Positions 8,254-39,657 of a stretch of 64,000 nucleotides of DNA are shown here, piece after piece. The DNA lies in IMG/VR virus record IMGVR_UViG_2565956726_000008. One strand, 5' to 3'. The stretch comes from a virus (taxonomy: Duplodnaviria > Heunggongvirae > Uroviricota > Caudoviricetes). Under the pieces are notes generated by a model that worked only from the letters and a program-made list of their open reading frames with translations, made no database searches and was not told the DNA's origin. How positions within the stretch are numbered: position 1 is the first letter of the stretch; the number at the start of each line of letters is the position of its first letter. The position numbers were made by a program, and so were the translations under genes.

Positions 8254-8420
8254 TTTGGGCCTCCTTCGTTGGTACTACTTTCTTCTTGCTTTCTATATAC
8301 ATCTTGTTGCGTGCTATGTGAAGCCATTTTGTAAACTAGCTATAATCATTGTGACAATGATCTTATTTTTCGCGTAGAAGCGCGTAAAGATATATACAAA
8401 ATGTAACTTGTGGGGGTTTT

Positions 8421-8774
8421 ATGCCGGAAGTGTTCAGATGGACGCCGCAAAGAAGCTACAGCGTGACCAGGAAGCCAGACGTATCTGTTGTTAAGCTGGG
8501 CGATGGTTATGAGCAAAGACAGGTAAAAGGTATCAATCCATTGCTTGATAGCTACACCCTGGTGTTTAAAGGCAGTAGCGCCGGATGTGGTGATGGTGGA
8601 AACGTAGCAATCCAGGCGGAAGCATTCTTGAGGGCGCGCGGCGCGGTCGAGGCTTTTTACTGGTCGCCGTCAATGGATAACGTGCAAAGGCTTTTTGTCT
8701 GTCGGCAATGGAGCATGACTAAAGACGGGCCTTTGTACACGCTAAACGCAACGTTTGAGCAAGTTGTTGGCTAA
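8421..8774 (+). CDS. minor tail protein M (lambda gpM homolog, divergent)
   Basis: 117 aa; shares lambda M hallmarks (FRWTP..., KLGDGYEQR, C-terminal FEQVVG). Confidence 0.8.
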   Translation: MPEVFRWTPQRSYSVTRKPDVSVVKLGDGYEQRQVKGINPLLDSYTLVFKGSSAGCGDGGNVAIQAEAFLRARGAVEAFYWSPSMDNVQRLFVCRQWSMTKDGPLYTLNATFEQVVG

Positions 8775-37118: not shown

Positions 37119-37640
37119 TGAAAATTCCTCAAGTTGGAGAGTTCTGGAACATTAAGGCGAGGTGGCAGTAATGCACCATCTGTAATCTTTTGATACTGAC
37201 GTAATCGGGCCTGATGTGCAACGCCTTGCAAGTATGTAACTCATTGAAAACGATCATTTTTATCTATTGACATCAAATGGCAAACTGTCATTGTGCGGCT
37301 ATGGCAAGTGGCAAATGCTTATAAATCATATGGATATAAATAGTACAGAAAGAGTTGTTTTCTCTAGGATATGAGTATACGCCCAATGCTGATTGGTTGA
37401 ATTTTGTTCTTGTTTTAAAGGGTAAGAGTTTAAAGTGTTGGCAGTGATGTATTGGATAGTTAGAATTGCTGTGGGTGCTTGAGGCTATCTGCCTCGGGCA
37501 TGAACACCAAAGGTAGATAGAGAAAAGCCCCAGTTAACATTACGCGTCCTGCAAGACGTTTAACATTAATCTGAGGCCATATCTATGCGACACATAGAGA
37601 TTAGCCTCTTACGGACCGAAAGGTCAAGGAGAAGCAGGCT

Positions 37641-37766
37641 ATGAAGCAGCAAAAGGCGATGTTAATCGCCCTGATCGTCATCTGTTTAACCGTCATAGTG
37701 ACGGCACTGGTAACGAGGAAAGACCTCTGCGAGGTACGAATCCGAACTGGCAGACGGAGGCTCTGA
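37641..37766 (+). CDS. Hok/Gef-family toxin homolog with divergent, truncated C-terminus (possible pseudogene)
   Basis: 41-aa ORF MKQQKAMLIALIVICLTVIVTALVTRKDLCEVRIRTGRRRL; first 37 residues match HokD/RelF-type toxins as I recall them, then the frame departs from the canonical ...TGQTEVAVFTAYE... end. Confidence 0.55.
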   Translation: MKQQKAMLIALIVICLTVIVTALVTRKDLCEVRIRTGRRRL

Positions 37767-37848
37767 TTCGTAGACTACTAATCTGAGTAAAAGACCCAGC
37801 GGGGAAAGAACCACGCCGGGACTAGTTAATAAGATATTTATAGCGTGG

Positions 37849-38190
37849 CTATTCTTTTTTTGCGGTATAGACTTTTTCGCCTGAGAAGTCTGGAGCTACC
37901 CAAAAGTTAATATTAAACTGAGCATCATCGCTTAGTTCAACACGGTGCCAGTATTGTGGTGGGCTTGTTGCAAAAGCGCCAGCATTAATGACTACTTTTA
38001 TCTCCGGTTCAGTAGCATTCTCATCAGCAAAACCATAATATGTTACAGTACCTTCCATCACGCATAACTGTCCAAAAACACCTGCTGCTGTATTATGATG
38101 TGTTAATAACGCTGAAGGTACGTTCTCTTTTGTGAAGAACGGAGTTGAGCGTTTGATTACCCAGTCTTTAGGAATTCTCTTGTGTGTCAT
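37849..38190 (-). CDS. YeaR-like cupin (DUF1971-type)
   Basis: 113 aa from MTHKRIPKDWVIKRSTPFF; alignable with my recollection of E. coli YeaR (RSTPF..., NIDFFVAP-type end). Confidence 0.5.
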   Translation of the reverse strand: MTHKRIPKDWVIKRSTPFFTKENVPSALLTHHNTAAGVFGQLCVMEGTVTYYGFADENATEPEIKVVINAGAFATSPPQYWHRVELSDDAQFNINFWVAPDFSGEKVYTAKKE

Positions 38191-38558
38191 AACCACCTCC
38201 CATAAAACATGCATTATAAATGCACCTTTTTGAGGGTTATGTCAAGCTGTTATGAAACACATAATTGATATGTTGATTAGAGGAGAAGATAGAATCAATA
38301 TGGTTGTTTTTCGTATAACTATTTGTTTTACTTTTAGTTTGTGCATTCTGTGTGTTAGGAATAACTTATTAAAGTTTAACTAAAAAATCTCGATATAGTC
38401 CGCATAGATTACTGTTACTGAATCTTATTGTGTGCATTAGTTGTGTTCTGAAATTTCAATTTAATTACTTATGATATATTTTTAACGATAAATGTTTTCC
38501 GGGTGAAAGACAGTGGGGGATGAGATAAGCAATATATCATTAATCTTGATTATTTCCA

Positions 38559-38618
38559 GGATGCCTTTACTGTGCATATAAATAAATCATATACGCATCA
38601 AATAATGTAAAGGCATCC
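38559..38618 (+). promoter_or_regulatory. 12-bp perfect inverted repeat followed by a T-run (hairpin / terminator-like)
   Basis: ggatgcctttac (38559-38570) and gtaaaggcatcc (38607-38618), 36-nt spacer, followed by TTTT. Confidence 0.35.
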
Positions 38619-39057
38619 TTTTAGATATATCTTATCAAATGTTAATGATTTGAGTGGGAAACATGATTCCAGAAACTAATCATGCGGCTACTTTATAAAA
38701 ATAATGCCCATATAAAACAGCCAGCGAAAAGGATTACGGATAAAAAAGGAGCGAGATGTGCATAGTTGTTATTTTCCATGTTTAACCACCTTAAATAATT
38801 GATGATGACGGGATGTGCATCTGTAATGCTTTTGTTGAAATGTTATGATAAAAAAGAACTTTTTCATAACATTAAAATGTAATTTATCTAATCGTTTTTA
38901 ATAATAAGTGTTGTATTTCTATCCTTGTATCAGCTATTTGATATGTAGTGTTTGTTCATGTTATGTGGAGCTTTACACCATAGCCAGTTTATTTATACTT
39001 TATTCGTCAGCCTGAACAACTGGCATCTGCTGCACTGCGCCATCGAGAGATTGAGAA

Positions 39058-39657
39058 ATGGCGCATATACAACTGGTCAAACAAACCTCTTCTGGACTAC
39101 TTCTCCCGGCGACGCCGGAGAGTTGCGATTTTTTGCATCAAATCAAAATAGGCGAGTGGATACACGCAGACTTTAAGCGTGTGCGTAACTACGCATTCCA
39201 CAAGCGTTTTTTCAAACTCCTGCAACTGGGATTCGATTACTGGACTCCGGTCGGTGGGGCGATCACGCCTCGCGAACGAAAGCTGGTTTCAGGATTCGTT
39301 GATTACCTATGTGAATCAGTAGGCCGGGAACATACGCCAGCTCTGAGCGAAGCCGCAGAGCAATATCTGAATACAGTTGCGACACGCAGAACCCGGGATA
39401 CGGCATTGCTAAAGTCGTTTGAGGCTTTCCGCGAGTGGGTAACCATTCAGGCCGGATTTTACACCGAGCATCTTTATCCTGATGGTAGCCATGGGCGTCG
39501 GGCGAAATCCATCGCTTTTGCGAATATGGACGAAACCGAGTTTCAGCAGGTTTATAAATCTGTTCTGAATGTGCTGTGGAACTGGATTCTGTTCCGTAAA
39601 TTTTCCTCTCCGGAACAAGTCGAAAATGTGACCGCGCAGCTGCTGGAGTTTGCGTAA
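39058..39657 (+). CDS. DUF1367-like prophage protein
   Basis: 199-aa ORF, first gene of the operon leading to Q; family recalled from lambdoid nin/Q regions, identity not verified. Confidence 0.5.
   Translation: MAHIQLVKQTSSGLLLPATPESCDFLHQIKIGEWIHADFKRVRNYAFHKRFFKLLQLGFDYWTPVGGAITPRERKLVSGFVDYLCESVGREHTPALSEAAEQYLNTVATRRTRDTALLKSFEAFREWVTIQAGFYTEHLYPDGSHGRRAKSIAFANMDETEFQQVYKSVLNVLWNWILFRKFSSPEQVENVTAQLLEFA

What the first reader, a model, noticed from the sequence alone, without database searches (positions are those of the whole stretch)
38215..39057. 0.84-kb AT-rich ORF-free spacer with two perfect inverted repeats upstream of the Q operon
The region between the cupin gene and the DUF1367 gene has no convincing ORF on either strand and is strongly AT-rich. 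It contains a 12-bp perfect inverted repeat (ggatgcctttac at 38559-38570, gtaaaggcatcc at 38607-38618) followed by TTTT, and a 10-bp perfect inverted repeat (aatgttatga at 38839-38848, tcataacatt at 38864-38873). It may hold a small RNA, a terminator/antiterminator structure controlling read-through into the Q operon, or a silenced promoter.
Basis: seen in the sequence. Interest (0 to 1): 0.45.

Follow-up and report, generated by a model that had tools for sequence, protein, structure and literature searches.

The report
Mosaic prophage spacer hiding small gene
The "empty" AT-rich gap in this E. coli Rac-like prophage is a patchwork of separate modules, one of which is an unannotated but conserved 28-codon membrane-peptide gene; the two hairpins belong to different modules and do not form one switch for the Q operon.

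Summary
Both inverted repeats and the low G+C are real, but "ORF-free" is wrong for the right half. Comparison with related prophages splits 38191-39057 into four parts.

1. 38206-38245 holds the promoter and a strong NsrR-type operator of the leftward yeaR-like DUF1971 gene.
2. 38251-38691 is the rest of that gene cassette. It has no gene. IR1 lies here: a very stable hairpin with a short T run on the + strand only, best read as an insulating terminator that replaces the hok terminator lost when the cassette arrived. This is inferred.
3. 38692-38912 is a self-contained module on the minus strand.
   - It encodes a 28-aa hydrophobic peptide (38779-38693) with a strong ribosome-binding site.
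   - The ORF is intact in 77 of 78 haplotypes, and dN/dS is 0.06-0.37.
   - At least 1160 of 5426 complete E. coli genomes carry most of the 366-nt segment that holds it.
   - It is not annotated and matches no family library.
   - IR2 sits about 60-95 nt upstream of its start codon.
4. 38913-39057 holds a conserved sigma-70-like promoter, followed by a hairpin that buries the DUF1367 start codon.

No small RNA was found. Function of the peptide is unknown. The elements are of known kinds, so interest is moderate.

The parts
37849..38190 (-). yeaR-like DUF1971 gene (113 aa), the accessory gene (moron) whose cassette supplies the left half of the spacer.
   Evidence: Pfam DUF1971 E=3.5e-26. NCBI's annotation places the start at 38190. 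SD GGAGGTGG lies at 38200-38193. 44% identical to K-12 YeaR. 79% identical to a yeaR-like gene that lies next to dsbB (L212).
38206..38228 (.). NsrR-type 11-1-11 operator AACATGCATTA-T-AAATGCACCTT. It contains a perfect TATAAT on the minus strand (38218-38213).
   Evidence: Scores 23.0 bits with a matrix built from 13 published CFT073 NsrR sites (which score 16.4-30.4). It is the best hit in the whole 64-kb window, and 0 of 2000 shuffles reach it. Kept in the variant clades at 22.1 and 24.1 bits. L212 has a canonical box in the same geometry.
38240..38245 (-). TTGACA, the -35-like hexamer of the DUF1971 promoter, 11 nt from the operator as in L212.
   Evidence: Read from the sequence and compared with L212. 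The spacing to TATAAT is 21 nt, so the true -10 is uncertain.
37805..38691 (.). Extent of the DUF1971 cassette relative to prophages that carry an intact hokD. It replaces 91 nt that hold the hok 3' UTR and terminator.
   Evidence: Local BLAST of the window against L004 and alignment A1.
38558..38619 (+). IR1: a long hairpin (13-bp outer stem plus an imperfect inner stem), then TTT. Candidate intrinsic terminator or insulator for rightward transcription.
   Evidence: (-23.2 kcal/mol on +, -28.1 on -; z -5.0 and -6.3). The T run is on the + strand only. The terminator scan did not list it because the loop exceeds its limit.
38693..38779 (-). Unannotated 28-aa ORF, MENNNYAHLAPFLSVILFAGCFIWALFL: a polar N-terminus followed by one hydrophobic helix.
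   Evidence: ORF list. Intact at 28 aa in 77 of 78 haplotypes, with no indels inside it. dN/dS 0.06-0.37, with a synonymous excess at p = 6e-6 to 0.02. No match in Pfam, NCBIfam, PHROGs or PADLOC. Not annotated in RefSeq genomes.
38786..38792 (-). Shine-Dalgarno AAGGTGG, 6 nt upstream of the ATG of the 28-aa ORF.
   Evidence: Sequence. Kept as AAGGTGA, AAGGTAG or AAAGTGA in the other clades.
38839..38873 (-). IR2: an 8-10-bp hairpin upstream of the small ORF. Read as a stem-loop near the 5' end of its mRNA, or alternatively as the palindromic core of its promoter.
   Evidence: The core helix pairs in 143 of 144 cells on the minus strand, through G-C to G-U and U-A to U-G changes that would be A-C mismatches on the + strand; one singleton goes the other way. 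Promoter candidate B lies inside the arms.
38874..38912 (-). Most conserved non-coding block of the module. It includes the invariant TATTAT (38906-38901), which is promoter candidate A for the small ORF.
   Evidence: 8 variable columns in 38870-38899 against 16-27 in neighbouring 30-nt bins. The stretch is invariant in 78 haplotypes. PWM scan. The module 38692-38910 recurs at 75% identity next to tail-fibre genes in L113.
38972..38999 (+). Sigma-70-like promoter TTTACA-16 nt-TATACT for the DUF1367-DUF1364-DUF1133(Q) operon.
   Evidence: 10 of 12 match. Conserved in clades that are only 74-77% identical overall, and also where a different first gene follows. Absent from O157 prophages, whose homology starts at 39009.
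39036..39065 (+). Hairpin UGCGCCAU / AUGGCGCA that buries the DUF1367 start codon (39058), with the SD-like GAGAGA in the 14-nt loop.
   Evidence: -13.1 kcal/mol, z -2.85. The same stem, with a loop of different sequence, precedes a different gene in L011 and L012.
39058..39657 (+). DUF1367 gene (irsA homologue), first gene of the operon that ends with the Q-like antiterminator.
   Evidence: Pfam. Annotated irsA in the Rac phage record MN652886.

Best explanation
The spacer is a recombination hot spot between hok and the irsA(DUF1367)-ybcO-Q operon of a Rac/Gifsy-type lambdoid prophage. It holds four unrelated modules.

1. The promoter and an NsrR-type operator of the leftward yeaR-like gene. 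That gene is probably repressed by NsrR and switched on by nitric oxide (inferred).
2. About 440 nt of gene-free cassette DNA ending in IR1. On the rightward strand IR1 forms a strong hairpin followed by a short U run. It probably stops transcription arriving from the hok and early-gene side, standing in for the hok terminator that the cassette displaced (inferred).
3. A 220-nt mini-gene on the leftward strand that encodes a 28-residue single-helix membrane peptide.
   - Coding is shown by its conservation pattern; translation itself is not shown.
   - IR2 lies in the upstream region of this gene. It is most likely a stem-loop near the 5' end of its mRNA.
   - The peptide is probably a membrane-acting accessory factor made in the lysogen, possibly toxin-like. 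Its function is a guess.
4. A conserved promoter that gives the Q operon its own start, followed by a hairpin that hides the first start codon.
For: - Mosaic structure. L004 has hokD, then 91 nt, then a homologue of 38692-39200. The first half occurs in 465 genomes and the second half in 1372 of 5426. The small-gene module also occurs alone beside tail-fibre genes. O157 prophages share only 39009-39057.
- NsrR box. 23.0 bits, the top hit in the window, reached by 0 of 2000 shuffles. A yeaR-like gene that lies next to dsbB carries a canonical box at the same distance from its -35. The yeaR operon is NsrR-regulated in E. coli (PMC5320621) and YeaR is a DUF1971 protein.
- Small gene. Strong SD. 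28 codons in 77 of 78 haplotypes, and in all 80 copies retrieved by an independent pattern. Variable columns by codon position are 5, 9 and 15. dN/dS 0.06-0.37 with Fisher p down to 6e-6. It is the only consistently conserved ORF in the region.
- IR2. The helix is kept in every clade, and the substitutions pair on the minus strand.
- IR1. Beyond chance, very stable, one G-C to A-T compensatory change, T run on the + strand only.
- Promoter. The block around 38972-39033 is the best conserved stretch right of the small-gene module, and it is kept in front of two different first genes.
- Precedent. Gifsy prophages place a terminator-like palindrome and a dedicated promoter in front of the operon that contains irsA (PMC3121763).
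Against: - There is no transcript, ribosome-profiling or binding data for any part.
- The codon-position test alone is only p = 0.07. The dS estimates rest on about 17 synonymous sites.
- The promoter of the small ORF is not pinned down. There are two candidates, both weak in the window's own clade.
- IR1 carries an A-C mismatch in most relatives, and the two strands pair equally well (102 against 101 of 117 cells). Its hairpin is much longer than a typical terminator's, and only 3-4 T follow it.
- The DUF1971 -35 and TATAAT are 21 nt apart.
- No regulator site was found for the 38972 promoter, and there is no LexA box.
- About 310 nt (38251-38557) remain without any assigned role.
Confidence: 0.55

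Rival explanations
1. The hairpins mark one or two small regulatory RNAs, or a riboregulator, that control read-through into the Q operon.
For: Both hairpins are more stable than shuffles. IR1 has a short U run on the + strand. A weak promoter-like site at 38448-38475 (9 of 12) could give a transcript of about 140 nt ending at IR1. Prophage regions of E. coli are rich in sRNAs (PMC4104026, listed).
Against: - No Rfam family matches inside the spacer, even at E up to 5.
- IR2 has no U run on either strand.
- The commonest clade deletes 52-56 nt of the would-be RNA body.
- IR1 is absent from relatives that lack the DUF1971 cassette yet have the same Q operon.
- The number of promoter-like sites is below the shuffle expectation (4 against 5.8).
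Confidence: 0.1
2. The 28-codon ORF is not translated. Its conservation reflects a cis-regulatory or RNA function of that stretch, for instance a transcript that runs antisense into the hok 3' end.
For: The ORF is very short and there is no experimental support. No gene caller or database holds it. In hokD-type loci it converges on the hok 3' UTR, with its stop about 20 nt from the hok terminator. The codon-position test is marginal (p = 0.07).
Against: - The excess of synonymous changes is significant in four clade comparisons.
- Start, stop, length and SD are conserved although the flanks carry many indels.
- Amino-acid replacements stay hydrophobic.
- The module works as a unit in a context without hok.
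Confidence: 0.15
3. IR2 is a DNA palindrome rather than an RNA stem-loop. It would be the core of the small gene's promoter (-35 ATGAAA in the left arm, -10 TAACAT in the right arm), and possibly the operator of a dimeric repressor.
For: A promoter candidate sits at the same position in all four clades. The A/T-rich conserved block upstream could serve as an UP element. The arms are conserved while the loop is free to vary.
Against: Both hexamers match only 4 of 6. Arm substitutions are of the G-U-compatible kind expected for an RNA on the minus strand (10 sequences plus 1, against one singleton the other way). The invariant TATTAT further upstream would have no role in this reading.
Confidence: 0.3
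4. IR1 has no transcriptional role. It is a neutral palindrome, a scar of cassette recombination, or a protein-binding or insertion target site inside H-NS-silenced foreign DNA.
For: - Most relatives carry one mismatch and one wobble in the outer stem.
- An IS3 element sits 5 nt from it in L009, and a deletion polymorphism abuts it.
- G+C of 25-32% is typical of H-NS targets (the link to H-NS rests on general knowledge).
- The arms resemble an NsrR half-site only weakly (6.1 bits).
Against: A perfect 13-bp repeat is rare by chance (0.1%). All nine variants still fold at -16 to -30 kcal/mol on the + strand. One position shows a full G-C to A-T exchange. The hairpin occupies the place of the displaced hok terminator.
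Confidence: 0.35

Closest known systems
LexA-controlled dinI-antirepressor-irsA operon of the Salmonella Gifsy prophages (Lemire, Figueroa-Bossi and Bossi 2011, PMC3121763)
   Same: Same map position: right of the replication genes and upstream of irsA (DUF1367) and Q. A terminator-like palindrome is followed by a dedicated promoter, so the operon starts afresh.
   Different: No LexA box, no dinI and no antirepressor gene. There is no DNA similarity. In this prophage a minus-strand small gene lies between the terminator and the promoter.
hok-rem-irsA-ybcO-Q arrangement of the Rac phage of E. coli 442/2 (MN652886) and hokD-rem of Qin, where Rem is the antirepressor of DicA (PMC10448788)
   Same: Same flanking genes (hok on the left, DUF1367/DUF1364/DUF1133 on the right) and the same variable slot between them.
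   Different: The window has no rem. Its spacer shows no similarity to the rem region. The 92-aa ORF found in this slot in L011 and L012 is not Rem either.
yeaR-yoaG promoter of E. coli, repressed by NsrR
   Same: A DUF1971 gene preceded by an 11-1-11 NsrR box lying over the promoter.
   Different: The gene is prophage-borne, only 44% identical to YeaR, and has no yoaG. Any NarL input is untested. The -35 to TATAAT spacing is odd.
Small hydrophobic type I toxins and other small membrane proteins of E. coli (Ibs, ShoB, Hok)
   Same: Under 30 residues, with a polar head and a hydrophobic tail. The ORF lies well downstream of a conserved upstream block, with a hairpin in between. It is carried on mobile DNA next to a hok/sok locus. 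The comparison rests on my own knowledge of these families.
   Different: No sequence similarity to any family. No antisense or divergent antitoxin RNA was found. Toxicity is untested.
Intrinsic terminators tR2-tR4 of the lambda nin region (own knowledge)
   Same: A hairpin plus T run between the replication genes and Q, on the rightward strand.
   Different: The hairpin is much longer (62 nt) and the T run is short. It belongs to an accessory cassette. No N/nut-type antitermination system was looked for or seen.

Membership tests
NsrR operator | [quoted passage not shown] | tested here: met
   23.0 bits, within the 16.4-30.4 range of 13 published sites. Top hit of the 64-kb window; 0 of 2000 shuffles reach it.
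NsrR operator | Overlaps the promoter of a gene of the NO-stress regulon. | tested here: met
   Lies 15-37 nt upstream of the start of a DUF1971 (YeaR-family) gene and contains TATAAT. Same geometry as L212.
NsrR operator | Bound by NsrR and released by NO. | not testable with these tools
   Needs EMSA or ChIP, or an nsrR mutant.
Intrinsic (Rho-independent) terminator (IR1, + strand) | G+C-rich stem directly followed by a T run. | tested here: inconclusive
   The base of the stem is GGATGCC/GGCATCC. The tail is TTTTAGAT after the 12-bp stem (5 T in 8), but only TTT after the 13-bp stem.
Intrinsic (Rho-independent) terminator (IR1, + strand) | Compact hairpin with a loop of 3-8 nt. | tested here: not met
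   36 nt lie between the arms, folded into an imperfect inner stem. The scan did not list it.
Intrinsic (Rho-independent) terminator (IR1, + strand) | Pairing maintained on the transcribed strand in relatives. | tested here: inconclusive
   102 of 117 cells pair on + and 101 of 117 on -. One compensatory exchange. Most relatives have one mismatch.
Small regulatory RNA gene | Own promoter and terminator bracketing a conserved body of 50-300 nt, or a match to a described family. | tested here: not met
   No Rfam hit. IR2 has no T run. The body upstream of IR1 is deleted in the commonest clade.
Protein-coding small gene (28 aa) | Ribosome-binding site at the correct distance, with start, stop and length conserved. 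| tested here: met
   AAGGTGG, then 6 nt, then ATG. 77 of 78 haplotypes, plus 80 of 80 copies from an independent retrieval.
Protein-coding small gene (28 aa) | Purifying selection on the amino-acid sequence. | tested here: met
   dN/dS 0.06-0.37. Fisher p from 6e-6 to 0.02. The codon-position test alone gives p = 0.07.
Protein-coding small gene (28 aa) | Evidence of translation. | not testable with these tools
   No paper contains the peptide sequence. The exact sequence is absent from the 15-billion-protein collection.
Type I toxin-antitoxin system | Small hydrophobic toxin. | tested here: met
   A run of about 18 hydrophobic C-terminal residues. Compatible with a toxin, but not specific to one.
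Type I toxin-antitoxin system | Antisense or divergently transcribed antitoxin RNA complementary to the toxin mRNA. | tested here: inconclusive
   I read the + strand of the module by eye and saw no position-conserved promoter or terminator. The candidate + strand hairpin with a U run is present only in the hokD-type clades.
Gifsy-type LexA-controlled induction operon | LexA box at the promoter. | tested here: not met
   No CTGT-N8-ACAG site, even with one mismatch, in 38900-39060.
Gifsy-type LexA-controlled induction operon | Antirepressor gene between the promoter and irsA. | tested here: not met
   The promoter is joined directly to DUF1367, and there is no rem or gfoA-like ORF.

The most novel reading that the evidence does not exclude
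The 28-residue peptide founds an undescribed family of prophage-borne small membrane proteins. More than a fifth of complete E. coli genomes carry most of the segment that holds it, and annotation pipelines miss it. In this reading it acts as a type I-like toxin or an anti-phage or membrane-modulating factor. Its expression would be governed by the IR2 stem-loop at the 5' end of its mRNA. In hokD-type prophages, convergent transcription into the hok 3' fold-back region would couple the two killer genes.
Probability: 0.2. Interest if true: 0.6.

Novelty: new member of a known kind. Interest (0 to 1): 0.4.

Why it matters
- It shows that a gap annotated as empty in hundreds of E. coli prophages carries a selected small gene that the pipelines miss. 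This gives a concrete, testable candidate for small-protein and prophage-fitness studies.
- It suggests that a prophage-borne yeaR-like gene is wired to the host nitric-oxide sensor NsrR. That would be an example of an accessory gene arriving with its host-regulated operator.
- It suggests that in Rac-type phages the operon ending in the Q antiterminator starts at its own promoter with a masked start codon. The Gifsy phages also give the irsA-containing operon a dedicated promoter. This bears on how such prophages are induced, and the inducing signal for the related Rem antirepressor is still unknown (PMC10448788).
- None of this is surprising in kind.

Tried and rejected
- **IR1 arms as NsrR half-sites.** They score only 6.1 bits, and the ATGC core varies among clades. 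Rejected.
- **LexA box at the Q-operon promoter, as in Gifsy.** None found.
- **Homology to rem.** None. The 92-aa ORF in L011 and L012 is not Rem.
- **Known sRNAs.** Rfam finds only sok, outside the spacer. svsR lies at the 3' end of cI. The Pas sRNAs lie near structural or lysis genes or Q/lpxR. HnrS is in Sakai prophages that lack this region. IsrK was considered from memory and its abstract, but there is no Rfam IsrK hit.
- **The 43-aa + strand ORF 38252-38383** (annotated as a hypothetical protein in one phage record). Only near-identical relatives exist, of variable length. The stop moves, one copy has an internal stop, and there is no third-position excess. Rejected.
- **The 34-aa minus-strand ORF 38346-38242.** Intact in 18 of 19 haplotypes, but it has no SD, its changes are mostly non-synonymous, and variable columns by codon position are 4, 5 and 3. 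Rejected.
- **Strand assignment of IR1 from its variants.** No difference between the strands.
- **A species-wide search for the small ORF with a degenerate DNA pattern.** 43 hits, of which the only two enterobacterial records (Shigella flexneri, Escherichia ruysiae) were checked and are genuine. The family therefore appears confined to Escherichia/Shigella at that stringency.
- **TGTGCAT clustering** (5 copies on one strand). The copies are not conserved in the other clades. Left unexplained.
Full report
**Context.** The window is a Rac-type lambdoid prophage of E. coli. An identical copy lies in strain 50579417. The gene order there is: recET, kilR, sieB, repressor/cro-like genes, ydaT-ydaV, a minus-strand KilA-N gene, hok, a minus-strand DUF1971 gene, the spacer, then DUF1367, DUF1364, DUF1133 (a Q-like antiterminator), lysis genes and trkG. 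Rfam finds only the sok/hok leader at 37473-37643, outside the spacer, and nothing credible inside it.

**Checking the observation.**
- Both repeats are at the stated coordinates. IR1 extends to 13 perfect pairs (38558-38570 / 38607-38619). IR2 extends to 14 pairs with one mismatch.
- G+C falls to 0.255-0.325.
- In 1000 dinucleotide shuffles of the spacer, a perfect repeat of 13 bp or more with a loop of 60 nt or less appeared in 0.1%. A 10-bp repeat appeared in 12%. IR1 is significant on its own; IR2 is not.
- The "ORF-free" claim fails for the right half (see the small-gene section below).
- NCBI's annotation of the identical genome starts the DUF1971 gene at 38190, behind the SD GGAGGTGG, not at 38214.

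**The spacer is a mosaic.**
- BLAST against relatives shows that prophages with an intact hokD have only 91 nt (the hok 3' UTR and terminator) where the window has 37805-38691. Homology resumes at 38692 (alignment A1).
- The left half of the spacer therefore travels with the DUF1971 gene as one cassette. It is found in 465 of 5426 complete genomes, in clades of about 100%, 92% and 82% identity.
- The right half is found in 1372 genomes, in clades of 100%, 96% and 73-77% identity.
- In the window, hok is C-terminally altered and has lost its terminator.
- O157 prophages share only 39009-39057.
- In another set of prophages (L011 and L012/APEC O78), the right half is conserved up to 39033 and is then followed by a different 92-aa ORF and DUF968 instead of DUF1367.

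**Left edge: an NsrR-type operator.**
- I built a matrix from 13 NsrR sites published for E. coli CFT073 (PMC5320621).
- With it, 38206-38228 (AACATGCATTATAAATGCACCTT) scores 23.0 bits. That is the best site in the 64-kb window and lies within the range of the known sites (16.4-30.4). None of 2000 shuffles reached it.
- The variant clades keep the box at 22.1 and 24.1 bits.
- A 79%-identical yeaR-like gene that lies just downstream of dsbB (L212) carries a canonical box. It lies at the same 11-nt distance from a TTGAC(A/G) hexamer.
- K-12 YeaR is a DUF1971 protein 44% identical to the prophage protein, and it has its own box. The yeaR operon is an NsrR target (PMC5320621).
- The box contains a perfect TATAAT on the gene's strand. 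That hexamer lies 21 nt from the TTGACA, so the exact promoter is uncertain.
- NsrR control is inferred, not shown.

**The rest of the cassette, and IR1.**
- No ORF between 38251 and 38691 stands up.
  - The 43-aa + strand ORF has only near-identical relatives, with moving stops.
  - A 34-aa minus-strand ORF is intact in 18 of 19 haplotypes. It has no SD and no coding signature.
- IR1 folds stably on both strands (-23.2 kcal/mol on +, -28.1 on -; z -5.0 and -6.3). All nine sequence variants still fold at -16 to -30 kcal/mol on the + strand.
- The repeat is perfect only in the window's own clade. Most relatives carry one A-C mismatch plus one wobble. One position shows a complete G-C to A-T exchange through that intermediate.
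- Counting pairs gives 102 of 117 cells on the + strand and 101 of 117 on the minus strand. The variants therefore do not say which strand matters.
- Only the + strand has T residues after the stem (TTTT after the 12-bp version). The hairpin is far longer than a typical terminator's, and the terminator scan did not list it.
- IR1 sits 72 nt before the junction where hokD-type relatives have the hok terminator. Gifsy prophages also place a terminator-like palindrome before the operon that contains irsA (PMC3121763).
- My best reading is therefore an insulating terminator for rightward transcription, held with moderate confidence.
- The idea that its arms are NsrR half-sites was tested and dropped. 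They score 6.1 bits, and the core varies.

**Right half: a hidden small gene.**
- The minus strand carries the ORF 38779-38693, MENNNYAHLAPFLSVILFAGCFIWALFL. It is preceded by AAGGTGG and a 6-nt spacer.
- I retrieved 120 viral-contig loci with a 19-mer from its 3' end. Adding the E. coli loci gave 78 distinct haplotypes, and 77 of them keep the same start, stop and 28-codon length. The exception is a deletion.
- An independent retrieval through the SD and N-terminal sequence gave 80 copies, all intact.
- Apart from that one deletion haplotype, there are no indels inside the ORF, although the flanks have many. Variable columns by codon position are 5, 9 and 15 (chi-square p = 0.07).
- Between clades, dN/dS is 0.06-0.37. 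The synonymous excess gives Fisher p values from 6e-6 to 0.02.
- No other ORF in this half is consistently conserved. The antisense ORF varies in length and is cut short in the window.
- The peptide matches nothing in Pfam, NCBIfam, PHROGs or PADLOC. It is absent as an exact sequence from the 15-billion-protein collection, is not annotated in RefSeq genomes, and is not mentioned in the paper library.
- A pattern search over one genome per species found it only in Shigella flexneri and Escherichia ruysiae.
- The segment 38692-38910 recurs at 75% identity in a quite different place, next to tail-fibre genes (L113). It therefore behaves as a self-contained mini-gene.

**IR2 belongs to this mini-gene.**
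- It lies about 60-95 nt upstream of the ATG.
- Its 8-bp core is paired in 143 of 144 cells of an 18-sequence alignment. The variation is G-C to G-U (8 against 10 sequences) and one U-A to U-G. These changes pair only on the minus strand. One singleton goes the other way.
- There is no T run after it on either strand, so it is not a terminator.
- Upstream lies the best conserved non-coding block of the region, which includes an invariant TATTAT (38906-38901).
- Two promoter models fit.
  - Model A uses TATTAT as the -10, with TTGCCG as the -35 in the hokD-type clades but a poor -35 in the window. This puts IR2 near the 5' end of the mRNA.
  - Model B has weak hexamers inside the two arms of IR2 itself.
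- I favour A because of the G-U pattern, but the data are thin.

**Right edge: a promoter and a masked start codon.**
- TTTACA-16 nt-TATACT (38972-38999, 10 of 12) lies in a block that stays nearly invariant between clades that are otherwise 73-77% identical. The block is also kept in front of two different first genes.
- No LexA box is present, and I found no other regulator site. A 7-bp repeat, GCCAGTT (38983-38989) / AACTGGC (39018-39024), brackets the -10 and the likely start.
- In the leader, UGCGCCAU (39036-39043) pairs with AUGGCGCA (39058-39065). This buries the DUF1367 start codon and leaves the SD-like GAGAGA in the loop (-13.1 kcal/mol, z -2.85).
- The same stem, with a loop of different sequence, precedes the alternative 92-aa gene in L011 and L012.

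**Comparison with what is known.**
- The slot between hok and irsA is variable. The Rac phage of strain 442/2 and Qin of K-12 carry rem there. Rem is an antirepressor of DicA whose inducing signal is unknown (PMC10448788). The window has no rem and no similarity to that region.
- Gifsy prophages have a palindrome, a LexA box, dinI, an antirepressor and then irsA. The layout is analogous, but the defining LexA box and antirepressor are absent here.
- The small peptide resembles type I toxins in size and shape only.

**Verdict.**
The small-RNA idea is unsupported. IR2 belongs to an overlooked small gene.
- Every component is of a known kind. The new item is the unannotated, selected 28-aa gene. 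Most of the segment that holds it is present in more than a fifth of complete E. coli genomes.
- Interest is moderate.

Noticed in passing
window 39036-39065; L011/L012 about 1834-1862: A hairpin (UGCGCCAU / AUGGCGCA, 14-nt loop holding an SD-like GAGAGA) sequesters the start codon of the first gene of the Q operon. The same stem, with a loop of different sequence, precedes a different first gene in other prophages. The homology break lies inside the loop.
   Followed up: partly
window 8387-8409: A second NsrR-like 11-1-11 box (AAGATATATACAAAATGTAACTT, 21.1 bits) lies 12 nt upstream of a 117-aa ORF (8421-8774) that follows the 780-aa ORF, apparently in the tail region. It may be chance.
   Followed up: no
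window 37641-37766 and 37805-38691: The hok gene is C-terminally altered (41 aa, ending RIRTGRRRL instead of the HokD tail). It has lost its 3' UTR and terminator to the DUF1971 cassette, while the sok/leader region still matches Rfam at 101 bits.
   Followed up: partly
window 38340-38820: TGTGCAT occurs five times on the + strand within 480 nt, against ten in the whole 64-kb window on both strands. The copies are not conserved in the other clades. Two of them lie in a 12-nt direct repeat, CG(A/G)GATGTGCAT, at 38752 and 38809.
   Followed up: partly
window 38250-38309: The 60 nt just upstream of the DUF1971 -35 hexamer are almost invariant in 19 haplotypes (0-3 variable columns per 30 nt, against 5-8 nearby). 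This could be an activator site; K-12 yeaR is NarL-activated, from my own knowledge. Not tested.
   Followed up: no
L113 641-866 (IMGVR_UViG_2547132270_000010): The small-gene module (upstream block, IR2, SD and 28-aa ORF) occurs at 75% identity beside tail-fibre genes, away from hok and the Q operon.
   Followed up: partly
L009 about 1975-2005; L100 about 940-1020; window 38497-38552: Mobile-element and indel activity around the repeats. An IS3-family element is inserted 5 nt left of IR1 in one genome. An IS2-like element sits at the equivalent of about 38915 in a viral contig. The commonest clade has a 52-56-nt deletion abutting IR1.
   Followed up: no
window 38181-38205 / 38237-38261: A 25-nt imperfect inverted repeat (76% complementary) pairs the SD and start region of the DUF1971 gene with the stretch covering its -35 hexamer. 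It matters only if transcripts start further upstream.
   Followed up: no
L011 1855-2133, L012 1854-2132: A conserved 92-aa ORF (MAHDTKLHNS...) takes the place of DUF1367 behind the same promoter block and is followed by DUF968. It is annotated as hypothetical and is unrelated to Rem.
   Followed up: partly
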